This document shows positions 58,827 through 64,000 of a stretch of 64,000 bases of DNA, piece after piece. The stretch comes from an uncultured Chloroflexia bacterium (lineage in GTDB: Bacteria; Chloroflexota; Anaerolineae; Anaerolineales; Anaerolineaceae). Made by a program: the position numbers and the translations under genes. The first letter of the stretch is position 1. Every line of letters starts with the position of its first letter. Below the pieces are notes generated by a model. It had not been told where the DNA came from. It saw only the letters and a list, made by a program, of their open reading frames with translations, and did not search any database. Location: contig CAVUJS010000009.1 of NCBI GenBank assembly GCA_963741885.1, positions 54,636 to 118,635 on the forward strand. The letters are read 5' to 3'.

Positions 58827-60593
58827 TCAAGAAATGGGCGTTTCAGATTTCTTCGTCACCTCGACGCAGGTGCCCTGGCCCGGTTTCGATTCCAGCTCAA
58901 AATTCGCGCCGATCAGGTCGGCGCGTTCGCGCATGCCCAGCAGCCCGTAATGGCCCAGGTGAGCATACGCCCCGGGGTCTGCCGGGATGCTAAACCCGCT
59001 CCCGTCATCCTGCACCGAAAGGCACACCCGCTGATCTTCAAAAGCCAGCTCCATGCGCACCTGCCGCGCGCCGGAATGGTGCATGGCGTTATTTAAGGCC
59101 TCTTGCGCAATGCGGTAGAAAGACAGCTCCACTTCTGGGCTCAGGCGGCGTTCAGCGCCGCTGACCTTAAACTTGAGCGCCGGGCGGCTGGCGGAGGGTT
59201 CTTCGGTCGGGTCTGCCTGCGCCAGCATCCCCAGGGCGGCCACCAGGCCGAGGTCTTCCAGGTAGATGGGGCGCAGCCCGCCAATGGCGCGGCGCAGGTT
59301 GGCGATGGTTTCGGTGACGCGTGCTTGCAGGTCGAGCAAGGACTGGCGCTGCTGGGGATCGGCTTGCAGCAGCGCCATCTGGACGTGCTGGTTGAGGGCG
59401 ATCAGGGACTGCAGGGTATCATCGTGCAGCTCGCGGGCCAGCGAGCGGCGTTCCGTCTCCAGCCCGGCGGTCAATGCGCCGATGTAAGCGTGCAGCGCCT
59501 GCTGCGCCGACTGTAATGCCGCGGCCATATTGACCAGTTCATCTTGCAAGTTGCGGATTTCACTGATCCCGCCGGCGGGCTGGCGCAGGGCAGAGAAATC
59601 CCCGGCAGCCAGGCGGCGCGCGCGGGTTTCCAGGGCTTGCAGCGGCTGGACGATCTGCCGCGCGCCAAACCACAGCGCCAGCAAAGCCAGCAGCAGCACC
59701 GGGATCAGCACCAGCGGCGCGGATTGGGTGAGGTTGAACAGCGGCCCGGCACTGGCTTCCCAGGGCTCTTCCAACACTAACCCCCAGCCGAAGGGCGGCA
59801 CCGGGCTGAAGGCAATCACATGTTCCCCGGAATGCCCGGCTGCCATGCCCGTTTGCGCCGGGCTGTAATTGACCCCGCTCTCCCCGCGCAGGACGTCCAC
59901 CACGCCCGAGTTCTGGTTGATGGGGTTGCTCGCGTTGTACGCGCCCAGCTGATAAAGCACCGCGCCCTGCTTGGAAAGCAGTAAAACCGTGGTCTGGGCA
60001 GAGGTCACGCCGTCTAAGGCTTCGCGGGCCAGGCTGGCCGGGCTAAACGCGCCTACCAGCAGGCCGCCCTGGGGAATATCCACCAGCCCAGGCACCCACC
60101 AGTGCCCATCCTCCGTCTGCACGGGGTTCGCCAGGTGGGCGATATATCCTGCGCCTACCGGCTGCGGGTTGGTCTTTTGTAACGCAGTCAGGTTGAGCAG
60201 AAAGGGCACGGCAGAGGTCGATTTGGCTAACAGCTGTCCATTCTCGCCGTACCAGGCCAGGCCCCCATCGAAACCGTTGCTCACCGCGGCCTGGTCCAGC
60301 CAGCCCTGCGGTTTGGCCACGGCCGGGCTGCCAGCGCGGTAGGCCAGCATCTCCAGGGCGGTGGCGCGGCTGGTGATTTCATGCGCCAGGTCGCTGGCGG
60401 TCGCACGCACCGCGCGCAGGTCGCGCTCGCCGATCAGCGTGCGCATTTCCTGATGGTGCAGCCCCTGGCTGGCCAGTACAATCGCCAGCAGCAGGGCGGT
60501 CAGCGGTACGACCAGGAACAGGAACAGCTGCAAGGTCAGGCCGCGCCAGCGGATTAACGGCAGCGGCAGCCCGCGGGGGTCTGGATCGTTCAT
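58827..60593 (-). CDS. Sensor histidine kinase (periplasmic Cache-like domain, HAMP, HisKA_3, HATPase)
   Basis: H-box RELHDDTLQSLIAL. EALNNAMHHS, DDGSGF and GLLGMRERADLIG. Confidence 0.9.
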   Translation of the reverse strand: MNDPDPRGLPLPLIRWRGLTLQLFLFLVVPLTALLLAIVLASQGLHHQEMRTLIGERDLRAVRATASDLAHEITSRATALEMLAYRAGSPAVAKPQGWLDQAAVSNGFDGGLAWYGENGQLLAKSTSAVPFLLNLTALQKTNPQPVGAGYIAHLANPVQTEDGHWWVPGLVDIPQGGLLVGAFSPASLAREALDGVTSAQTTVLLLSKQGAVLYQLGAYNASNPINQNSGVVDVLRGESGVNYSPAQTGMAAGHSGEHVIAFSPVPPFGWGLVLEEPWEASAGPLFNLTQSAPLVLIPVLLLALLALWFGARQIVQPLQALETRARRLAAGDFSALRQPAGGISEIRNLQDELVNMAAALQSAQQALHAYIGALTAGLETERRSLARELHDDTLQSLIALNQHVQMALLQADPQQRQSLLDLQARVTETIANLRRAIGGLRPIYLEDLGLVAALGMLAQADPTEEPSASRPALKFKVSGAERRLSPEVELSFYRIAQEALNNAMHHSGARQVRMELAFEDQRVCLSVQDDGSGFSIPADPGAYAHLGHYGLLGMRERADLIGANFELESKPGQGTCVEVTKKSETPIS

Positions 60594-61276
60594 CGAGTTT
60601 CGACGGGGGGTTCGATCAGCCCCAATGAGACGGCGCGCATGACGGCCTCGGTGCGCGAGGCGGCAGAGAGCTTGCCAAAGATGTGCGCCAGGTGGTTCTG
60701 CACGGTGCGGTCTGAGATGGTCAGCTGCGCGCCAATGGCTTTATTGGTCAGGCCGCGCGCCACCAGGGAGAGGATTTCCAGCTCGCGCTCGGTGAGCGGC
60801 TCCACCTGCACTAGCGGCTCGGGCTCCGGTTGAGACTCCTTACGGATCAGGCGCATGGCCAGGGCGGCATCTAACACCGATTTCCCCGCGTATACATCCC
60901 GCACGGCCTGGGCAATCTCCAGCGGTTCGGCGGTCTTGAGCACGTAGCCGTTGGCGCCCGCGCGCAGGACGGCCTGCACATATGGTTCATCGTCATAGGC
61001 CGTCAGGATGAGGATGCCGCCGTCCGGCCCCTGGGCGCGCATCCAGCGGGTGACCTCGATGCCGGTCATCCCAGGCATTTGCACATCCAGCACGGCCACA
61101 TCTGGGTGATGTTCGGCGATCAGGCGGCAGGCCTCATTGCCATCACTGGCCTCGGCGACTACCTCGATTCCGCCGGCGAATTCAAGGAACTGGCGGATGC
61201 CAGCGCGCACCACGGCATGGTCATCGGCCAGTAAAACACGGATGGGAGCATTGTTTTGTTGAGTGTTCTGGTTCAT
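60590..61276 (-). CDS. NarL/LuxR-family response regulator
   Basis: VLLADDHAVVRAGI, LDVQMPGMTG, and HTH LTERELEILSLVARGLTNKAIGAQLTISDRTVQNH. 4-nt overlap with the kinase gene. Confidence 0.92.
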   Translation of the reverse strand: MNQNTQQNNAPIRVLLADDHAVVRAGIRQFLEFAGGIEVVAEASDGNEACRLIAEHHPDVAVLDVQMPGMTGIEVTRWMRAQGPDGGILILTAYDDEPYVQAVLRAGANGYVLKTAEPLEIAQAVRDVYAGKSVLDAALAMRLIRKESQPEPEPLVQVEPLTERELEILSLVARGLTNKAIGAQLTISDRTVQNHLAHIFGKLSAASRTEAVMRAVSLGLIEPPVETR

Positions 61277-61482
61277 TTAGGCGCAATTATAGCAGAGGAT
61301 GCGTGGATGCTCAAATTATTGATACAACGGTATTGCCCAAGCCGGTCCGGCTTGGGCAATACCGTTTGAACACTTTGGTTTATATTTTTTGCCTGTGCGG
61401 TGGGTTGTCACGCAAACGGAGCTGTCCGCCGAGTATGACCGGCAGATTTGCGAACCCTGCTGGGACCCCTGCGCAGGCTGGA

Positions 61483-61728
61483 TTAAAGCCTGCCGGGCAG
61501 CGGGCGGCACCAGCCGGTGAAACCGTCGATGATCTCCAGGATCAGGTCGGCTTCTTCGCTGCGGTTCTGCCGGGCGAGGTGGGCGTGAAAAGCTTCCAGC
61601 GCGGGGAGCAGATCACTGCGCTCGTAGCCGCGCTCCAGCAATTCGTTCATCAGTTTTTGCAGCCCGGCGCGCGGCGTTGGGGTTTGCAGCGCCGTCTCCA
61701 GGCGCGGTTCAAGCGAAGTGAAATCCAT
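61483..61728 (-). CDS. Small hypothetical protein (81 aa), probably leaderless
   Basis: TTGCCT-18 nt-TAGAAT ends 6 nt before the ATG (61728) and there is no SD. Protein-like helical sequence. No homology recognised. Confidence 0.45.
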   Translation of the reverse strand: MDFTSLEPRLETALQTPTPRAGLQKLMNELLERGYERSDLLPALEAFHAHLARQNRSEEADLILEIIDGFTGWCRPLPGRL

Positions 61729-61813
61729 AAGACTATTCTACACAAAATTTGGATCAGCAGGCAATTTTATGTGCCACGGGATGAGAAAGTAGCCTTTTCT
61801 TGCCGGCAAGCTG

Positions 61814-61978
61814 CCGTCCACGAATGCGCTTCGCGCGAACGAATAATCGAATGGTACGCGGTAGGCTTTTTCCGATCCGTGAAGGGTACACTCATGCTCG
61901 TTTGCTTTATAAAGGAACCCCTCCGAGCCTGGTAATATTCGCTTATTCGTTTTGCGGCGCAGCCGCATTCGTGGACGG
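61814..61978. repeat. MITE-like element with terminal inverted repeats CCGTCCACGAATG / CATTCGTGGACGG (third, inverted copy)
   Basis: Its reverse complement aligns with 50175..50327 and 54694..54845 at the ends (CCGTCCACGAATGCGGCTGCGCCGCAAAACGAATAAGCG ... CATTCGTGGACGG). The centre is divergent. Confidence 0.75.
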
Positions 61979-62003
61979 CTTCTCCCTGCTTCAAAAACTT
62001 AAT

Positions 62004-62204
62004 TTGACTTTTCTCCCCAATCTGATTATCATTCCCTCTATGAACGCATATTCTGCTTCTTCCTTAATGCGCATGGCCATGCGCCGCGCCGGGCTGGCAT
62101 CCTGGATGCCGCGCGGCTGTTTGCGTTTGGGGAGGAAGACCGGGTAATCTGTGCGCCGGTTTTTAGCTGTTTTTACCCTCCCTGCACGGGAGGGTTTATT
62201 TTTT
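62004..62204 (+). promoter_or_regulatory. Candidate metG leader: promoter, leaderless 35-codon Met-rich sORF (62040..62147), intrinsic terminator (62176..62204)
   Basis: TTGACT(62004)-17 nt-TATCAT(62027-62032), with ATG 62040 at the expected +1. sORF MNAYSASSLMRMAMRRAGLASWMPRGCLRLGRKTG. CCCTCCC-TGCAC-GGGAGGG + TTTATTTTTT abuts the metG AAGGAG RBS. Confidence 0.4.
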
Positions 62205-62216
62205 AAGGAGTTTTCG

Positions 62217-63761
62217 ATGTTTTACGTGACGACGCCGATTTATTATGTGAACGATGAGCCGCATTTGGGCCATGCCTACACCACCATCCTGGCGGATGCT
62301 CTGGCGCGTTATCACCGGTTGCGCGGCGAGGAGGTGTTCTTTCTGACCGGCGTGGATGAGCACGGGCAAAAGGTGGCAAATGCGGTCAAGAAAAACAACT
62401 TGAGCGACCCGCAAGGTTATGTTGACGCGATGGCGCTGCGTTTTCAGGATACCTGGGCCAGCCTGGAGATTGCTTACGACGATTTTATCCGCACCACTCA
62501 GCCGCGCCATATCCAGGTGGTTCGGGATATTTTGCAGCAGCTGTGGGACGCCGGTGAGATTTACCGCGGCGCTTACGAGGGCTGGTACTGCGTGCCGGAT
62601 GAGCGTTTCTGGACGGAAAAAGACCTGCGCCTGGGCCCGGACGGCGCGCCGTTATGCCCGGACTGCGGCCGGCCGGTGGAGAAGATCACCGAGACGAATT
62701 ATTTCTTCCGCATGAGCGCCTACCAGGACTGGCTGATCGATTACATTCAAACCCACCCCGCCTTTATCCAGCCCGGGTACCGGCGCAACGAGGTGCTGGG
62801 GTTCCTGCGCCAGCCATTGAGCGACCTGTGCATTTCGCGCCCGGCGGCTCGCCTCAATTGGGGCATTCCCCTGCCGTTTGACGCGGACTACGTGACCTAT
62901 GTGTGGTTCGACGCGCTGCTGAATTACGTCACCGCGGCGGGTTATGGCGCGGACGCGGAGCGCTTTGCCGGGCAGTGGCCGGAGGCGCTGCACCTGATTG
63001 GCAAGGATATCCTCACCACCCATTCGGTTTACTGGCCGACCATGCTCAAAGCCGCCGGGCTGCCCCAACCGAAAACCATCTTTGCGCATGGCTGGTGGGT
63101 GATTGGCGGGACGAAGATGGGCAAGTCACTGGGGAACGCCGTGCGCCCGCTGGATCTGGTGGAGCAATATGGGGTGGACGCTTTCCGCTACTTCCTGCTG
63201 CGCGATATGACCCCCGGGCAGGATGCCGAGTTTTCCGCCGAGCGCCTGGACACGCGCTATGCCAGCGACCTTGCCAATAACCTGGGCAACCTGCTTCAGC
63301 GCGTGCTCAGCATGCTCGGGCGCTACTGTCAGGGGCGCGTTCCTCAGCCGGGCGAGCCAACTGAGGCAGAGGCCGCGCTGCGCGCGCAGCTGGAAGCGCT
63401 GCCAGGGCAGGTCTTTGCCCAGGTAGATGAACTGGCGCTGAACAACGCACTGGGGCTGGTGCTGGAGGCGCTTAGCGCGGTCAACGCTTACCTGGAGCGC
63501 AGCGCGCCGTGGCGGGCTGCCAAAGCCGGCGCACAGGCGCGGGTGGAGACGATCCTGTATACCGCCGGGGAAGCGCTGCGCTTTGCCTCTGTGCTGCTAG
63601 CCCCCGCGCTGCCGCAACAGACAGTGGAAATTTGGCGGCGTTTGGGCTGGCTGGCCCCTGAACCGCTGGCGCAGGGGCTGGCCTGGGGCAGCTGGCAGCC
63701 GGGAACCCCGGTGGTGCAGGGTGAGCCGTTGTTTCCTAAGCAGGAAGGCGGGTTGGGGTAA
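62217..63761 (+). CDS. metG: Methionine--tRNA ligase
   Basis: AAGGAG 6 nt before ATG 62217. TTPIYYVNDEPHLGHAYT (HIGH region), Zn knuckle CPDCGRP, KMGKSLGN (KMSKS). Confidence 0.95.
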   Translation: MFYVTTPIYYVNDEPHLGHAYTTILADALARYHRLRGEEVFFLTGVDEHGQKVANAVKKNNLSDPQGYVDAMALRFQDTWASLEIAYDDFIRTTQPRHIQVVRDILQQLWDAGEIYRGAYEGWYCVPDERFWTEKDLRLGPDGAPLCPDCGRPVEKITETNYFFRMSAYQDWLIDYIQTHPAFIQPGYRRNEVLGFLRQPLSDLCISRPAARLNWGIPLPFDADYVTYVWFDALLNYVTAAGYGADAERFAGQWPEALHLIGKDILTTHSVYWPTMLKAAGLPQPKTIFAHGWWVIGGTKMGKSLGNAVRPLDLVEQYGVDAFRYFLLRDMTPGQDAEFSAERLDTRYASDLANNLGNLLQRVLSMLGRYCQGRVPQPGEPTEAEAALRAQLEALPGQVFAQVDELALNNALGLVLEALSAVNAYLERSAPWRAAKAGAQARVETILYTAGEALRFASVLLAPALPQQTVEIWRRLGWLAPEPLAQGLAWGSWQPGTPVVQGEPLFPKQEGGLG

Positions 63762-63770
63762 CCTGGCAGG

Positions 63771-63820
63771 CTGCGGCCGGGCGGTCAACCCCTGCGGCCG
63801 GGCGGTCAATCCCTGCGGGC
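63771..63820. repeat. 21-bp tandem repeat x2.3 (CTGCGGCCGGGCGGTCAAYCC)
   Basis: Direct reading, between the convergent metG and cytochrome c genes. Confidence 0.85.
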
Positions 63821-63844
63821 TACAGAAGGCTGGCAATTCAGGGT

Positions 63845-64000
63845 CTACTGTGTGGGAAAGGGCTGCCCGAGTGCAAAAGTGTACAGATAACTCACCAGCG
63901 CATCCAGCTGATCCTGGGTGAAGATCGCGCCCCAGGCGGGCATGCCGGTGCCCATGCCTCCGCGCAGCAGTTTGCCTTCCAGCAGGGCCGGGCTGGCCCC
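63845..64000 (-). CDS. c-type cytochrome, C-terminal fragment (gene continues beyond window end)
   Basis: Minus frame reads ...LLEGKLLRGGMGTGMPAWGAIFTQDQLDALVSYLYTFALGQPFPTQ then stop. MPAWG...LDALVSYL is the typical class I cytochrome c C-terminus (Met ligand region). Confidence 0.6.
   Translation of the reverse strand, partial: GASPALLEGKLLRGGMGTGMPAWGAIFTQDQLDALVSYLYTFALGQPFPTQ

What the first reader, a model, noticed from the sequence alone, without database searches (positions are those of the whole stretch)
62004..62216. metG is preceded by a leaderless Met-rich sORF and an intrinsic terminator that abuts its RBS: candidate leader-peptide attenuator
SEEN: TTGACT-17 nt-TATCAT places +1 at or next to A62040, the A of an ATG. 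This opens a 35-codon ORF, MNAYSASSLMRMAMRRAGLASWMPRGCLRLGRKTG. It has Met at codons 10, 12, 14 and 23, in a genome where ATG is rare. The three clustered Met codons lie inside a perfect 16-nt palindrome, GCGCATGGCCATGCGC. Twenty-nine nt after the stop comes CCCTCCC-TGCAC-GGGAGGG followed by TTTATTTTTT, ending 1 nt before the metG AAGGAG. There is no room for a separate metG promoter, so metG transcription must read through this terminator. GGGAGG inside the end of the sORF (62129-62134) can pair with the terminator 5' arm CCTCCC as a possible antiterminator that a terminating ribosome would mask.

ESTABLISHED: leader-peptide attenuation with cognate codons controls pheST, trp, his, leu and thr operons.

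INFERENCE: an analogous Met-sensing attenuator for metG, which I am not aware of having been described.
Basis: partly seen in the sequence, partly recalled or inferred. Interest (0 to 1): 0.6.

Follow-up and report, generated by a model that had tools for sequence, protein, structure and literature searches.

The report
Methionine-codon leader attenuator before spare metG
A tiny methionine-rich reading frame followed by competing RNA hairpins and a transcription stop signal sits in front of a second, spare methionyl-tRNA synthetase gene, is conserved wherever that gene occurs, and most likely switches the gene on when charged methionine-tRNA runs short.

Summary

- **The gene is a spare copy.** The genome has two MetRS genes. 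The window's gene (514 aa) occurs in only 9 of 401 genomes of the family. The 596-aa housekeeping copy has no such leader.
- **The leader is conserved.** All 9 orthologues and 5 metagenome copies (14 leaders) share these parts:
  - a sigma-70-type promoter with its -10 box 6-7 nt before an ATG (one copy has a Shine-Dalgarno site instead);
  - a 22-43 codon frame with an in-frame M-x-M cluster;
  - a covarying inner hairpin;
  - a G-rich segment that can pair either with the stretch before the Met codons or with the terminator's 5' arm;
  - a stop codon at or near that segment;
  - an intrinsic terminator.
- **The same leader type precedes a methionine gene.** It precedes a cystathionine-gamma-synthase-family gene in 26 of 28 family genomes, as expected if the element senses methionine.
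- **Known RNA families do not match.** No Rfam family (T-box and SAM included) reached E <= 1, although both models find other sites in this genome.

This scan had already noted methionine-codon leaders before metG on other DNA (Anaerolineae, CPR). I found no published description for metG. The nearest published cases are the pheST, Streptomyces trpS/leuS and putative metL leaders.

The parts
62004..62032 (+). Sigma-70-type promoter: TTGACT, 17 nt, TATCAT. The predicted start of transcription is at or next to A62040, so the mRNA would be leaderless.
   Evidence: 10 of 12 consensus matches. In 13 of 14 homologous leaders the -10 hexamer ends 6-7 nt before the ATG. In G160 a 19-nt spacer with the Shine-Dalgarno-like AAGGTGA replaces this. 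Genome-wide, TANNNT ends 6-7 nt before candidate start codons more often than at other distances.
62040..62147 (+). Leader peptide ORF: 35 codons plus TAA (MNAYSASSLMRMAMRRAGLASWMPRGCLRLGRKTG).
   Evidence: The frame is open up to region 2 in 13 of 14 leaders, against 0 of 14 and 6 of 14 for the other two frames. 62 of 69 ATG triplets are in frame.
62067..62081 (+). Regulatory Met-codon cluster ATG CGC ATG GCC ATG (codons 10, 12, 14). A fourth Met codon lies at 62106-62108.
   Evidence: ATGNNNATG is conserved in 13 of 14 leaders (G014 has ATGGTGAGG). It is always in frame with the start although the spacer is 24, 27, 30, 33, 42 or 48 nt.
62056..62078 (+). Region 1: 5' strand of the long leader hairpin (CUUCUUCCUUAAUGCGCAUGGCC). 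It pairs with region 2 and carries the Met codons.
   Evidence: hairpin 62056-62138, 33 pairs, -44.6 kcal/mol. 1:2 duplex energies are -14 to -24 kcal/mol across the 14 leaders.
62081..62114 (+). Inner hairpin (P2) at the tip of the leader hairpin, starting just after the last Met codon of the cluster.
   Evidence: 8 consensus pairs. Four of them carry 3-7 sequences each in which both sides changed and the pair is kept.
62115..62138 (+). Region 2: 3' strand of the leader hairpin with the core GGGGAGG (62129-62135). It pairs either with region 1 or with the terminator's 5' arm (antiterminator).
   Evidence: antiterminator duplex -14.2 kcal/mol. Compensatory changes: GGGAAGG with CCTTCCC in G042, and GGAGGG with CCCTCC in G004.
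62139..62160 (+). Small hairpin P3 holding the sORF stop codon (TAA, 62145-62147), followed by a U-rich stretch. Its sequence varies among relatives.
   Evidence: -8.3 kcal/mol. Flagged as terminator-like.
62175..62204 (+). Intrinsic terminator: stem ACCCUCCC / GGGAGGGU, loop UGCAC, then UUAUUUUUU. The 5' arm is region 3 and the 3' arm is region 4.
   Evidence: -15.3 kcal/mol. A terminator with a CCTCCC-type 5' arm and a T run is present in all 14 leaders.
62205..63761 (+). Shine-Dalgarno AAGGAG (62205-62210) and the accessory methionyl-tRNA synthetase gene (ATG at 62217, 514 aa).
   Evidence: NF008900, 670 bits, cut-off 598. 28% identical to the genome's 596-aa housekeeping MetRS.

Best explanation
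This is a ribosome-mediated (trp/pheST-type) transcription attenuator that senses charged tRNA-Met. It controls an accessory, second MetRS gene.

Proposed mechanism:
1. Transcription starts at or next to the A of the sORF's ATG. The leaderless sORF is translated while RNA polymerase moves on.
2. **Met-tRNA plentiful.** The ribosome runs to the stop codon, which lies in or just after region 2 (GGGGAGG), and covers it. Region 3 (CCCUCCC) is then free to pair with region 4. The terminator forms and transcription ends 12 nt before metG.
3. **No translation at all.** Region 1 pairs with region 2 and the terminator also forms.
4. **Met-tRNA scarce.** The ribosome stalls on the M-x-M-x-M cluster inside region 1. 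Region 2 is freed and pairs with region 3 as an antiterminator. Polymerase reads through and the spare MetRS is made.

Shown here: the sequence elements, their conservation, the coding signature, the covariation and the predicted alternative folds. Inferred: the transcription start, translation of the sORF, stalling, and regulated read-through.
For: 1. **Conserved with the gene.** 9 of 9 family orthologues and 5 distinct metagenome copies carry the leader. In the metagenome pattern scan, the 6 of 80 listed loci that have a MetRS orthologue downstream are the ones with the leader architecture. None of the other 74 passed a check for an in-frame ATGA start plus a CCTCCC-type terminator. Nothing else in the flanks is shared between the genome loci, so the leader travels with the gene.
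2. **Coding signature.** The Met cluster is in frame in 14 of 14 leaders with six different spacer lengths, all multiples of three. The sORF frame is open in 13 of 14, against 0 and 6 for the other frames. 62 of 69 ATG triplets are in frame. Met is 11.1% against 2.0% (binomial p = 3e-21; the sequences are related, so this overstates). The one copy that is not leaderless has a Shine-Dalgarno site instead.
3. **RNA switch.** RNAalifold selects the inner hairpin, with many compensatory changes, and the region 2: region 3 antiterminator, with compensatory changes in G042 and G004. With a ribosome footprint at the first Met codon, the antiterminator forms in 12 of 14. With the footprint at the stop codon it is absent in 13 of 14.
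4. **Link to methionine metabolism.**
   - The covariance model of the leader finds one further true hit. It lies before a cystathionine-gamma-synthase-family gene followed by an aspartokinase-like ORF.
   - 26 of 28 orthologues of that gene in the family have Met-rich sORFs upstream. In the 7 read in full (L222 and six), a segment of the sORF also matches the terminator's 5' arm.
   - Housekeeping metG in 7 other families of the order also has Met-rich sORFs upstream (six followed by terminator-like hairpins); five have a -10-like hexamer 6-7 nt before the ATG.
5. **Controls.**
   - Only 3 of 75 MetRS genes of the same type from other phyla have any upstream sORF with M.M or MM.
   - The leader is unique in its own genome.
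   - No Rfam family matches any leader, although the T-box model finds 10 sites at 55-96 bits (plus one 30-bit partial hit) and the SAM model 2 elsewhere in this genome.
Against: - There is no transcript, 5'-end, Term-seq or ribosome data.
- The transcription start is only predicted. By a crude measure, leaderless starts are a small minority in this genome, about 2% of genes.
- One leader (G014) has a single internal Met codon.
- The stop codon lies 28 nt past region 2 in two metagenome copies and 8 nt before it in G096.
- In 5 of 14 leaders the untranslated nascent RNA already prefers the antiterminator in the minimum-energy fold. The model therefore relies on the order of folding during transcription.
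- In G005 and mgL128 the strict antiterminator count is 0 in the stalled state.
- In G004 about 350 nt lie between the terminator and metG, and could hold another promoter.
- Methionine shortage also limits initiator tRNA charging, which could blunt the response.
- Mononucleotide-shuffle z-scores for the 2:3 duplex are modest (+0.7 to -3.6), because G-rich and C-rich segments pair anyway.
Confidence: 0.8

Rival explanations
1. The leader is an RNA-only switch, such as a riboswitch, a tRNA-binding element like a T-box, or a protein-binding leader. Under this view the ATG triplets are conserved as RNA sequence and the reading frame is incidental.
For: The leader is strongly structured. The inner hairpin and the 2:3 pairing covary. 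T-boxes are used elsewhere in this genome.
Against: - No Rfam family at E <= 1 in any leader, while the same T-box and SAM models work in this genome.
- Frame conservation across six spacer lengths, an open frame in 13 of 14, and 62 of 69 ATG triplets in frame.
- A Shine-Dalgarno site replaces the leaderless start in G160.
- The 5' third of the leader varies in sequence but not in frame.
- The methionine-biosynthesis leaders of the same family reach 7-10 internal Met codons, which an RNA motif does not explain.
Confidence: 0.07
2. The sORF is a drug- or metabolite-dependent arrest peptide, like the leaders of erm or cat genes. The conserved M-x-M-P motif would stall the ribosome when a translation inhibitor is present, which induces a resistant spare MetRS.
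For: - The peptide motif M-[VL]-M-P-x-A-A is conserved in many copies.
- The gene is a patchily distributed accessory synthetase in different genomic contexts.
- Auxiliary, antibiotic-resistant synthetases under attenuation are known, such as Streptomyces trpRS1 (Vecchione and Sello 2010, as listed in PMC4787780).
Against: - The own copy (MRMAMRR) and G014 (MVRRR) lack the Pro.
- The same Met-rich design precedes methionine-biosynthesis genes and housekeeping metG, where codon sensing is the simpler explanation.
- A MetRS inhibitor would act through uncharged tRNA-Met in any case, which is the best explanation rather than a rival to it.
Confidence: 0.05
3. The terminator is not regulated. The leader is either a short independent transcript (small RNA or small protein gene) that ends at the terminator, or a constitutive leaky terminator that only sets a low level of metG expression.
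For: The terminator is strong (-15.3 kcal/mol plus a U run). No expression data exist.
Against: - metG has no room for its own promoter, only 12 nt.
- The upstream gene is divergent, so the terminator serves no other gene.
- The antiterminator is conserved and covaries.
- Stop-codon placement relative to region 2 is kept across frame changes.
- The peptide sequence outside the Met cluster is poorly conserved.
Confidence: 0.05

Closest known systems
pheM-pheST attenuator of Escherichia coli, and classical attenuators before trpS and leuS in Streptomyces (PMC1262725)
   Same: A leader peptide enriched in the cognate codons, alternative 1:2 / 2:3 / 3:4 helices and an intrinsic terminator in front of the gene for the matching aminoacyl-tRNA synthetase.
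   Different: The amino acid is methionine, the phylum is Chloroflexota, the start is leaderless, and the controlled gene is an accessory second copy. No sequence similarity; no Rfam leader family matches.
Attenuator of the auxiliary, indolmycin-resistant trpRS1 of Streptomyces coelicolor (Vecchione and Sello 2010, J Bacteriol 192:3565; seen only as a reference in PMC4787780; the paper itself is not held)
   Same: Ribosome-mediated attenuation controls a second, auxiliary synthetase, so that it is made when charging of the cognate tRNA fails.
   Different: Trp codons rather than Met codons. Whether this MetRS resists any inhibitor is unknown.
Leaderless leader peptides of Streptomyces lividans found by RNA-seq: leuL/leuS, trpL2/trpS, alaL/alaS, thrL/thrS, and a putative methionine-dependent metL before metNIQ (PMC8079986). 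Leader peptides of Corynebacterium glutamicum are reported in PMC3890552.
   Same: Leader peptides translated from leaderless transcripts, several before synthetase genes. metL is a published proposal of a Met-dependent leader peptide.
   Different: metL precedes a transporter, has two internal Met codons, and its termination was called unclear. No MetRS leader is reported there. The present element has a clear terminator, a covarying antiterminator and a methionine-biosynthesis counterpart.
T-box riboswitch (RF00230) with a Met specifier
   Same: The same regulatory logic: uncharged tRNA-Met leads to antitermination before a MetRS gene.
   Different: T-boxes bind the tRNA directly and need no translation. 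Membership was tested and not met (with a positive control).
SAM-I (S-box) riboswitch
   Same: Terminator/antiterminator control of methionine-related genes. Two copies exist in this genome.
   Different: It senses SAM through a ligand-binding fold. There is no match in this leader.

Membership tests
Ribosome-mediated (leader-peptide) transcription attenuator | A short ORF in the 5' leader with a credible translation start | tested here: met
   ATG lies 6-7 nt after the -10 box in 13 of 14 leaders, and a Shine-Dalgarno site precedes it in the 14th. The frame is open in 13 of 14. Translation itself is not shown.
Ribosome-mediated (leader-peptide) transcription attenuator | Clustered codons for the amino acid that matches the controlled gene | tested here: met
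   M-x-M or M-x-M-x-M cluster in 13 of 14 leaders. Met is 11.1% against 2.0% in the proteome. 62 of 69 ATG triplets are in frame.
Ribosome-mediated (leader-peptide) transcription attenuator | An intrinsic terminator between the sORF and the controlled gene, with no promoter after it | tested here: met
   Stem of 8 pairs plus a U run, ending 12 nt before the metG ATG. Present in all 14. Exception: G004 has about 350 nt after the terminator.
Ribosome-mediated (leader-peptide) transcription attenuator | An antiterminator (2:3) that excludes the terminator (3:4), and an anti-antiterminator (1:2) that overlaps the regulatory codons | tested here: met
   RNAalifold consensus with compensatory changes. 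1:2 and 2:3 duplex energies. Footprint-constrained folds.
Ribosome-mediated (leader-peptide) transcription attenuator | A stop codon placed so that a terminating ribosome covers region 2 | tested here: met
   The stop lies from 14 nt before to 12 nt after the end of region 2 in 12 of 14 leaders, and the antiterminator is abolished in 13 of 14 constrained folds. Two metagenome copies stop 28 nt later.
Ribosome-mediated (leader-peptide) transcription attenuator | Read-through rises when the cognate charged tRNA is limiting | not testable with these tools
T-box riboswitch (RF00230) | A match to the covariance model (Stem I with specifier loop, T-box sequence in the antiterminator bulge) | tested here: not met
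   No hit at E <= 1 in the window 60000-64000 or in five orthologous loci. The same model finds 10 sites at 55-96 bits (plus one 30-bit partial hit) elsewhere in this genome.
SAM-I riboswitch (RF00162) | A match to the covariance model | tested here: not met
   No hit in the leader. Two hits of 84-85 bits elsewhere in the genome.
Curated Rfam leader families (Phe, Trp, His, Leu, Thr leaders and others) | A match to any of the 4227 Rfam models | tested here: not met
   Only chance-level hits at E about 0.9.

The most novel reading that the evidence does not exclude
The leader plus the 514-aa MetRS is a self-contained, laterally moving 'emergency synthetase' cassette. The MetRS belongs to a lineage otherwise typical of PVC and FCB phyla. 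It is kept silent by the attenuator and induced only when the resident 596-aa MetRS fails to keep tRNA-Met charged, for example when a natural MetRS inhibitor is present. On this reading the cassette is an inducible resistance or self-protection device, the methionine counterpart of Streptomyces trpRS1. Its sensor would have been recruited from the lineage's own methionine-biosynthesis attenuators.
Probability: 0.2. Interest if true: 0.7.

Novelty: new variant of a known kind. Interest (0 to 1): 0.55.

Why it matters
- **A gap in known methionine control.** Methionine control in bacteria is known through SAM riboswitches, Met T-boxes and protein repressors. Textbook leader-peptide attenuators cover Trp, His, Phe, Leu, Thr and Ile/Val, but not Met.
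- **What this adds.** A well-conserved Met-codon attenuator group in Chloroflexota (spare MetRS, methionine biosynthesis and, in sister families, housekeeping MetRS) would extend that mechanism to an amino acid whose tRNA charging also feeds initiation.
- **Coexistence in one genome.** Attenuation, T-boxes and SAM riboswitches are all present in this single genome.
- **A testable question.** The finding gives a handle on why some Anaerolineae keep a second, foreign-type MetRS.
- **Practical use.** The element is short (about 165 nt) and self-contained, so reporter tests in laboratory strains or cell-free systems are straightforward.

Tried and rejected
- **T-box, SAM riboswitch or any Rfam family.** Searched at E <= 1 in the window and five orthologous loci; nothing real. 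Also nothing before the housekeeping metG.
- **Another copy of the leader in the same genome.** None by pattern or by architecture scan.
- **A Met leader on the genome's housekeeping metG.** There is none. That gene follows a sigma-factor gene and a long palindrome.
- **Weak hits of covariance model R1.** The 20-27 bit hits in 151 family and 151 order genomes were, except L222, coding-region or otherwise unsupported false positives. R1 therefore does not detect the housekeeping-metG leaders of other families. Homology between the leader types remains open.
- **Metagenome pattern scan.** 74 of the 80 listed loci were chance matches without the leader architecture.
- **Inheritance of the leader with the gene from other phyla.** Rejected: 3 of 75 outside MetRS genes have any M.M or MM sORF upstream, and none is convincing.
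- **Column-wise covariation counts for the terminator and for helix 1:2.** Abandoned, because MAFFT does not keep those arms in register. Per-sequence duplex and constrained folds were used instead.
- **Look-ups that failed.** The Vecchione and Sello paper is not held. The exact-protein look-up found no record.
- **Literature.** Searches for a Met or metG leader-peptide attenuator found nothing. The putative Streptomyces metL surfaced in a later full-text read.

Full report
**1. The observation**

  - TTGACT (62004), 17 nt, TATCAT (62027-62032), then 7 nt to the ATG at 62040.
  - A 35-codon sORF (62040-62147) with Met at codons 10, 12, 14 and 23.
  - The palindrome GCGCATGGCCATGCGC at 62069-62084.
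  - A terminator at 62175-62195 with a U run, directly followed by AAGGAG and the metG ATG at 62217.
- Corrections are minor. GGGGAGG lies at 62129-62135. The stop-to-terminator gap is 28 nt. Met is not rare in this genome (2.0% of residues in long ORFs).
- The leader folds well below shuffled controls (-73.1 kcal/mol, z = -3.1).
- The predicted structure has three parts:
  - A long hairpin 62056-62138 (33 pairs, -44.6 kcal/mol). Its 5' strand carries the Met cluster and its 3' strand carries GGGGAGG.
  - A small hairpin 62139-62160.
  - The terminator (-15.3 kcal/mol).

**2. The gene is a spare MetRS**

- The product is a MetRS (NF008900, 670 bits).
- The genome has a second MetRS of 596 aa on another contig (NF001100 type, 28% identical).
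- The 596-aa type had a match in all 41 genomes of the first sample, in some only fragments. The window's type was in 6 of those 41, and in 9 of 401 family genomes (5 of 74 genera).
- Five of the genomes with the spare copy were checked for the housekeeping copy, and all five have it.
- In a quick maximum-likelihood tree the spare copies form one clade (SH-aLRT 100). That clade is nested among MetRS of Lentisphaerota, Kiritimatiellota, Bacteroidota, Fibrobacterota and Omnitrophota. The sample was limited and the method quick, so the donor is not established.
- Apart from MetRS itself, no flanking ORF is shared between the nine genome loci.
- The housekeeping gene of this genome has neither a Met leader nor a T-box.

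**3. The leader goes with the gene**

- All nine orthologues carry it.
- A metagenome scan for a degenerate core pattern matched 100 stretches, of which 80 loci were listed and checked. Six of them (five distinct sequences) have a MetRS orthologue of 66-76% identity downstream.
- Those six are the ones with the leader architecture. None of the other 74 passed a check for an in-frame ATGA start plus a CCTCCC-type terminator.
- The leader is unique in its own genome, both by pattern and by an architecture scan.

**4. The sORF looks translated**

- In 13 of 14 leaders a -10 hexamer ends 6-7 nt before the ATG. In G160 there is instead a 19-nt spacer with AAGGTGA 5 nt before the ATG.
- The conserved nucleotide motif ATGNNNATG is in frame with the start in all 14 leaders. 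The spacer lengths are 24, 27, 30, 33, 42 and 48 nt, so at least five indel events were all multiples of three.
- The sORF frame is open up to region 2 in 13 of 14 leaders. The other two frames are open in 0 and 6 of 14.
- 62 of 69 ATG triplets are in frame, and internal Met is 48 of 431 residues.
- Leaderless starts appear to exist in this genome. TANNNT ends 6-7 nt before candidate ATG starts 146 and 86 times, against a background of about 65 at other distances. SD-led starts dominate.

**5. The RNA switch**

- On the 14-sequence alignment RNAalifold picks two elements:
  - The inner hairpin, where four pairs each have 3-7 sequences with both sides changed.
  - The pairing of GGGGAGG with the terminator's 5' arm. 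Compensatory changes are GGGAAGG with CCTTCCC in G042 and GGAGGG with CCCTCC in G004.
- I folded the nascent RNA, through the terminator loop, with a 28-nt footprint blocked:

| Ribosome position | Result |
|---|---|
| First Met of the cluster | Antiterminator (at least 4 pairs) in 12 of 14 |
| Stop codon | Antiterminator absent in 13 of 14 |
| No ribosome | Region 1 : region 2 in 9 of 14; antiterminator in the other 5 |

- Because 5 of 14 untranslated leaders already prefer the antiterminator, the order of folding during transcription has to matter.
- The end of region 2 lies within 14 nt of the stop codon in 12 of 14 leaders, even where the frame at GGGGAGG differs.

**6. Methionine logic beyond metG**

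- A covariance model of the 5' part (R1) scored the seven known family copies in the sample at 48-73 bits. It gave one further real hit, L222 at 27 bits.
- L222 has a leaderless sORF (MQSSNPGCPVSPAITMLMPCPMRSHGVKLLTAWQK) with its own 1:2 pairing, a 2:3 pairing (CGGCCUG: CAGGCCG) and a 3:4 terminator. It precedes a cystathionine-gamma-synthase-family gene (NF006097, 390 bits, below that model's 600-bit cut-off, so the exact enzyme is open) and an aspartokinase-like ORF.
- Of 28 family orthologues of that gene, 26 have Met-rich sORFs upstream. Examples are MSIQFASAASAVLLIAMGMMMAMVMRRFSRQAALAEGKVI and MKIIDSAYQLTYVNGLFNTMSMLMPCGHTRAAAMQVRAR.
- Six examples read in full show a segment in the sORF (GGGCAGC) that matches the terminator's 5' arm (GCUGCCC).
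- Housekeeping metG genes of seven other families of the order also have Met-rich sORFs upstream, six followed by terminator-like hairpins. Five have a -10-like hexamer 6-7 nt before the ATG. Examples are MFKFSSTFSMLMCGRP... and MNVLDTARSSMLMRGLP....
- Control: 3 of 75 same-type MetRS genes from other phyla have any sORF with M.M or MM upstream.

**7. Not a known RNA family**

- No Rfam model reaches E <= 1 with a plausible match in any leader.
- The T-box model finds 10 sites at 55-96 bits (plus one 30-bit partial hit) and the SAM-I model two sites elsewhere in this genome. The negative result is therefore meaningful.

**8. Comparison with what is known**

- Attenuators before synthetase genes are established or predicted for pheST, and for trpS and leuS in Streptomyces (PMC1262725).
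- An auxiliary trpRS1 is reported to be controlled by ribosome-mediated attenuation (Vecchione and Sello 2010, seen as a reference only).
- Leaderless leader peptides before leuS, trpS, alaS and thrS, and a putative methionine-dependent metL before metNIQ, were reported from RNA-seq of Streptomyces lividans (PMC8079986).
- Six searches for a Met or metG leader-peptide attenuator found none for metG.
- Earlier notes of this scan report Met-codon leaders before metG in other Anaerolineae and in CPR bacteria. I confirmed the Anaerolineae pattern on my own loci.
- New here: the controlled gene is an accessory MetRS of a different type, and there is a link to methionine-biosynthesis leaders in the same family.

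**9. Verdict**

- The mechanism is a classical attenuator with a new amino-acid specificity and an unusual target.
- Confidence is 0.8. The missing piece is any direct evidence of transcription start, termination or regulation.

Noticed in passing
window 61813-61979: A MITE-like element lies directly upstream of the leader's -35 box. It has perfect 16-nt terminal inverted repeats (GCCGTCCACGAATGCG / CGCATTCGTGGACGGC) and a second inner 20-nt inverted repeat.
   Followed up: partly
window 61483-61728 (- strand): A divergent 81-aa ORF has no NCBIfam match. Its promoter-like site, TTGCCT-18-TAGAAT, ends 6 nt before its ATG, so it is also predicted to be leaderless.
   Followed up: no
L214 (G000 contig C20:262300-265300), locus coordinates 2113-2189: The housekeeping 596-aa metG follows a sigma-70-like gene and a long near-perfect palindrome of about 77 nt. 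It has no Met leader and no T-box.
   Followed up: partly
L007, L008, L012, L018, L019, L020, L028 (upstream of housekeeping metG in other families of the order): Met-rich sORFs, six followed by terminator-like hairpins, precede the housekeeping metG in seven other families of the order; five have a -10-like hexamer 6-7 nt before the ATG. Housekeeping copies in the window's own family lacked them by the same criterion.
   Followed up: partly
L222 (G108:C12:122488-122586) and L248-L274: Very Met-rich leader peptides (up to 7-10 internal Met) precede a cystathionine-gamma-synthase-family gene in 26 of 28 family genomes. In L222 an aspartokinase-like ORF follows that gene. Terminators and matching antiterminator segments were seen in the seven leaders read in full.
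   Followed up: partly
L003 1244-1500 (G004): About 350 nt of extra, repeat-like sequence lie between the leader's terminator and metG in this one genome. It could carry another promoter.
   Followed up: no
window 63771-63826: Just after the metG stop codon there is a direct repeat of about 22 nt: GCGGCCGGGCGGTCAACCCCT / GCGGCCGGGCGGTCAATCCCT. It lies before a convergent cytochrome-c-like ORF end.
   Followed up: no
G000, whole genome: The T-box model gives ten hits of 55-96 bits plus one 30-bit partial hit (two over the 93-bit cut-off), and the SAM-I model gives two hits (84-85 bits, over its cut-off). One SAM-I site is at C9:49593-49718, about 5 kb before the window. Three RNA-based amino-acid sensing systems therefore coexist with the attenuator.
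   Followed up: partly
window 62139-62173: The small hairpin ACCGGGUAAUCUGUGCGCCGGU is followed by UUUUUAGCUGUUUUU and was flagged as terminator-like. It may act as a first, weaker stop signal in this copy only.
   Followed up: no
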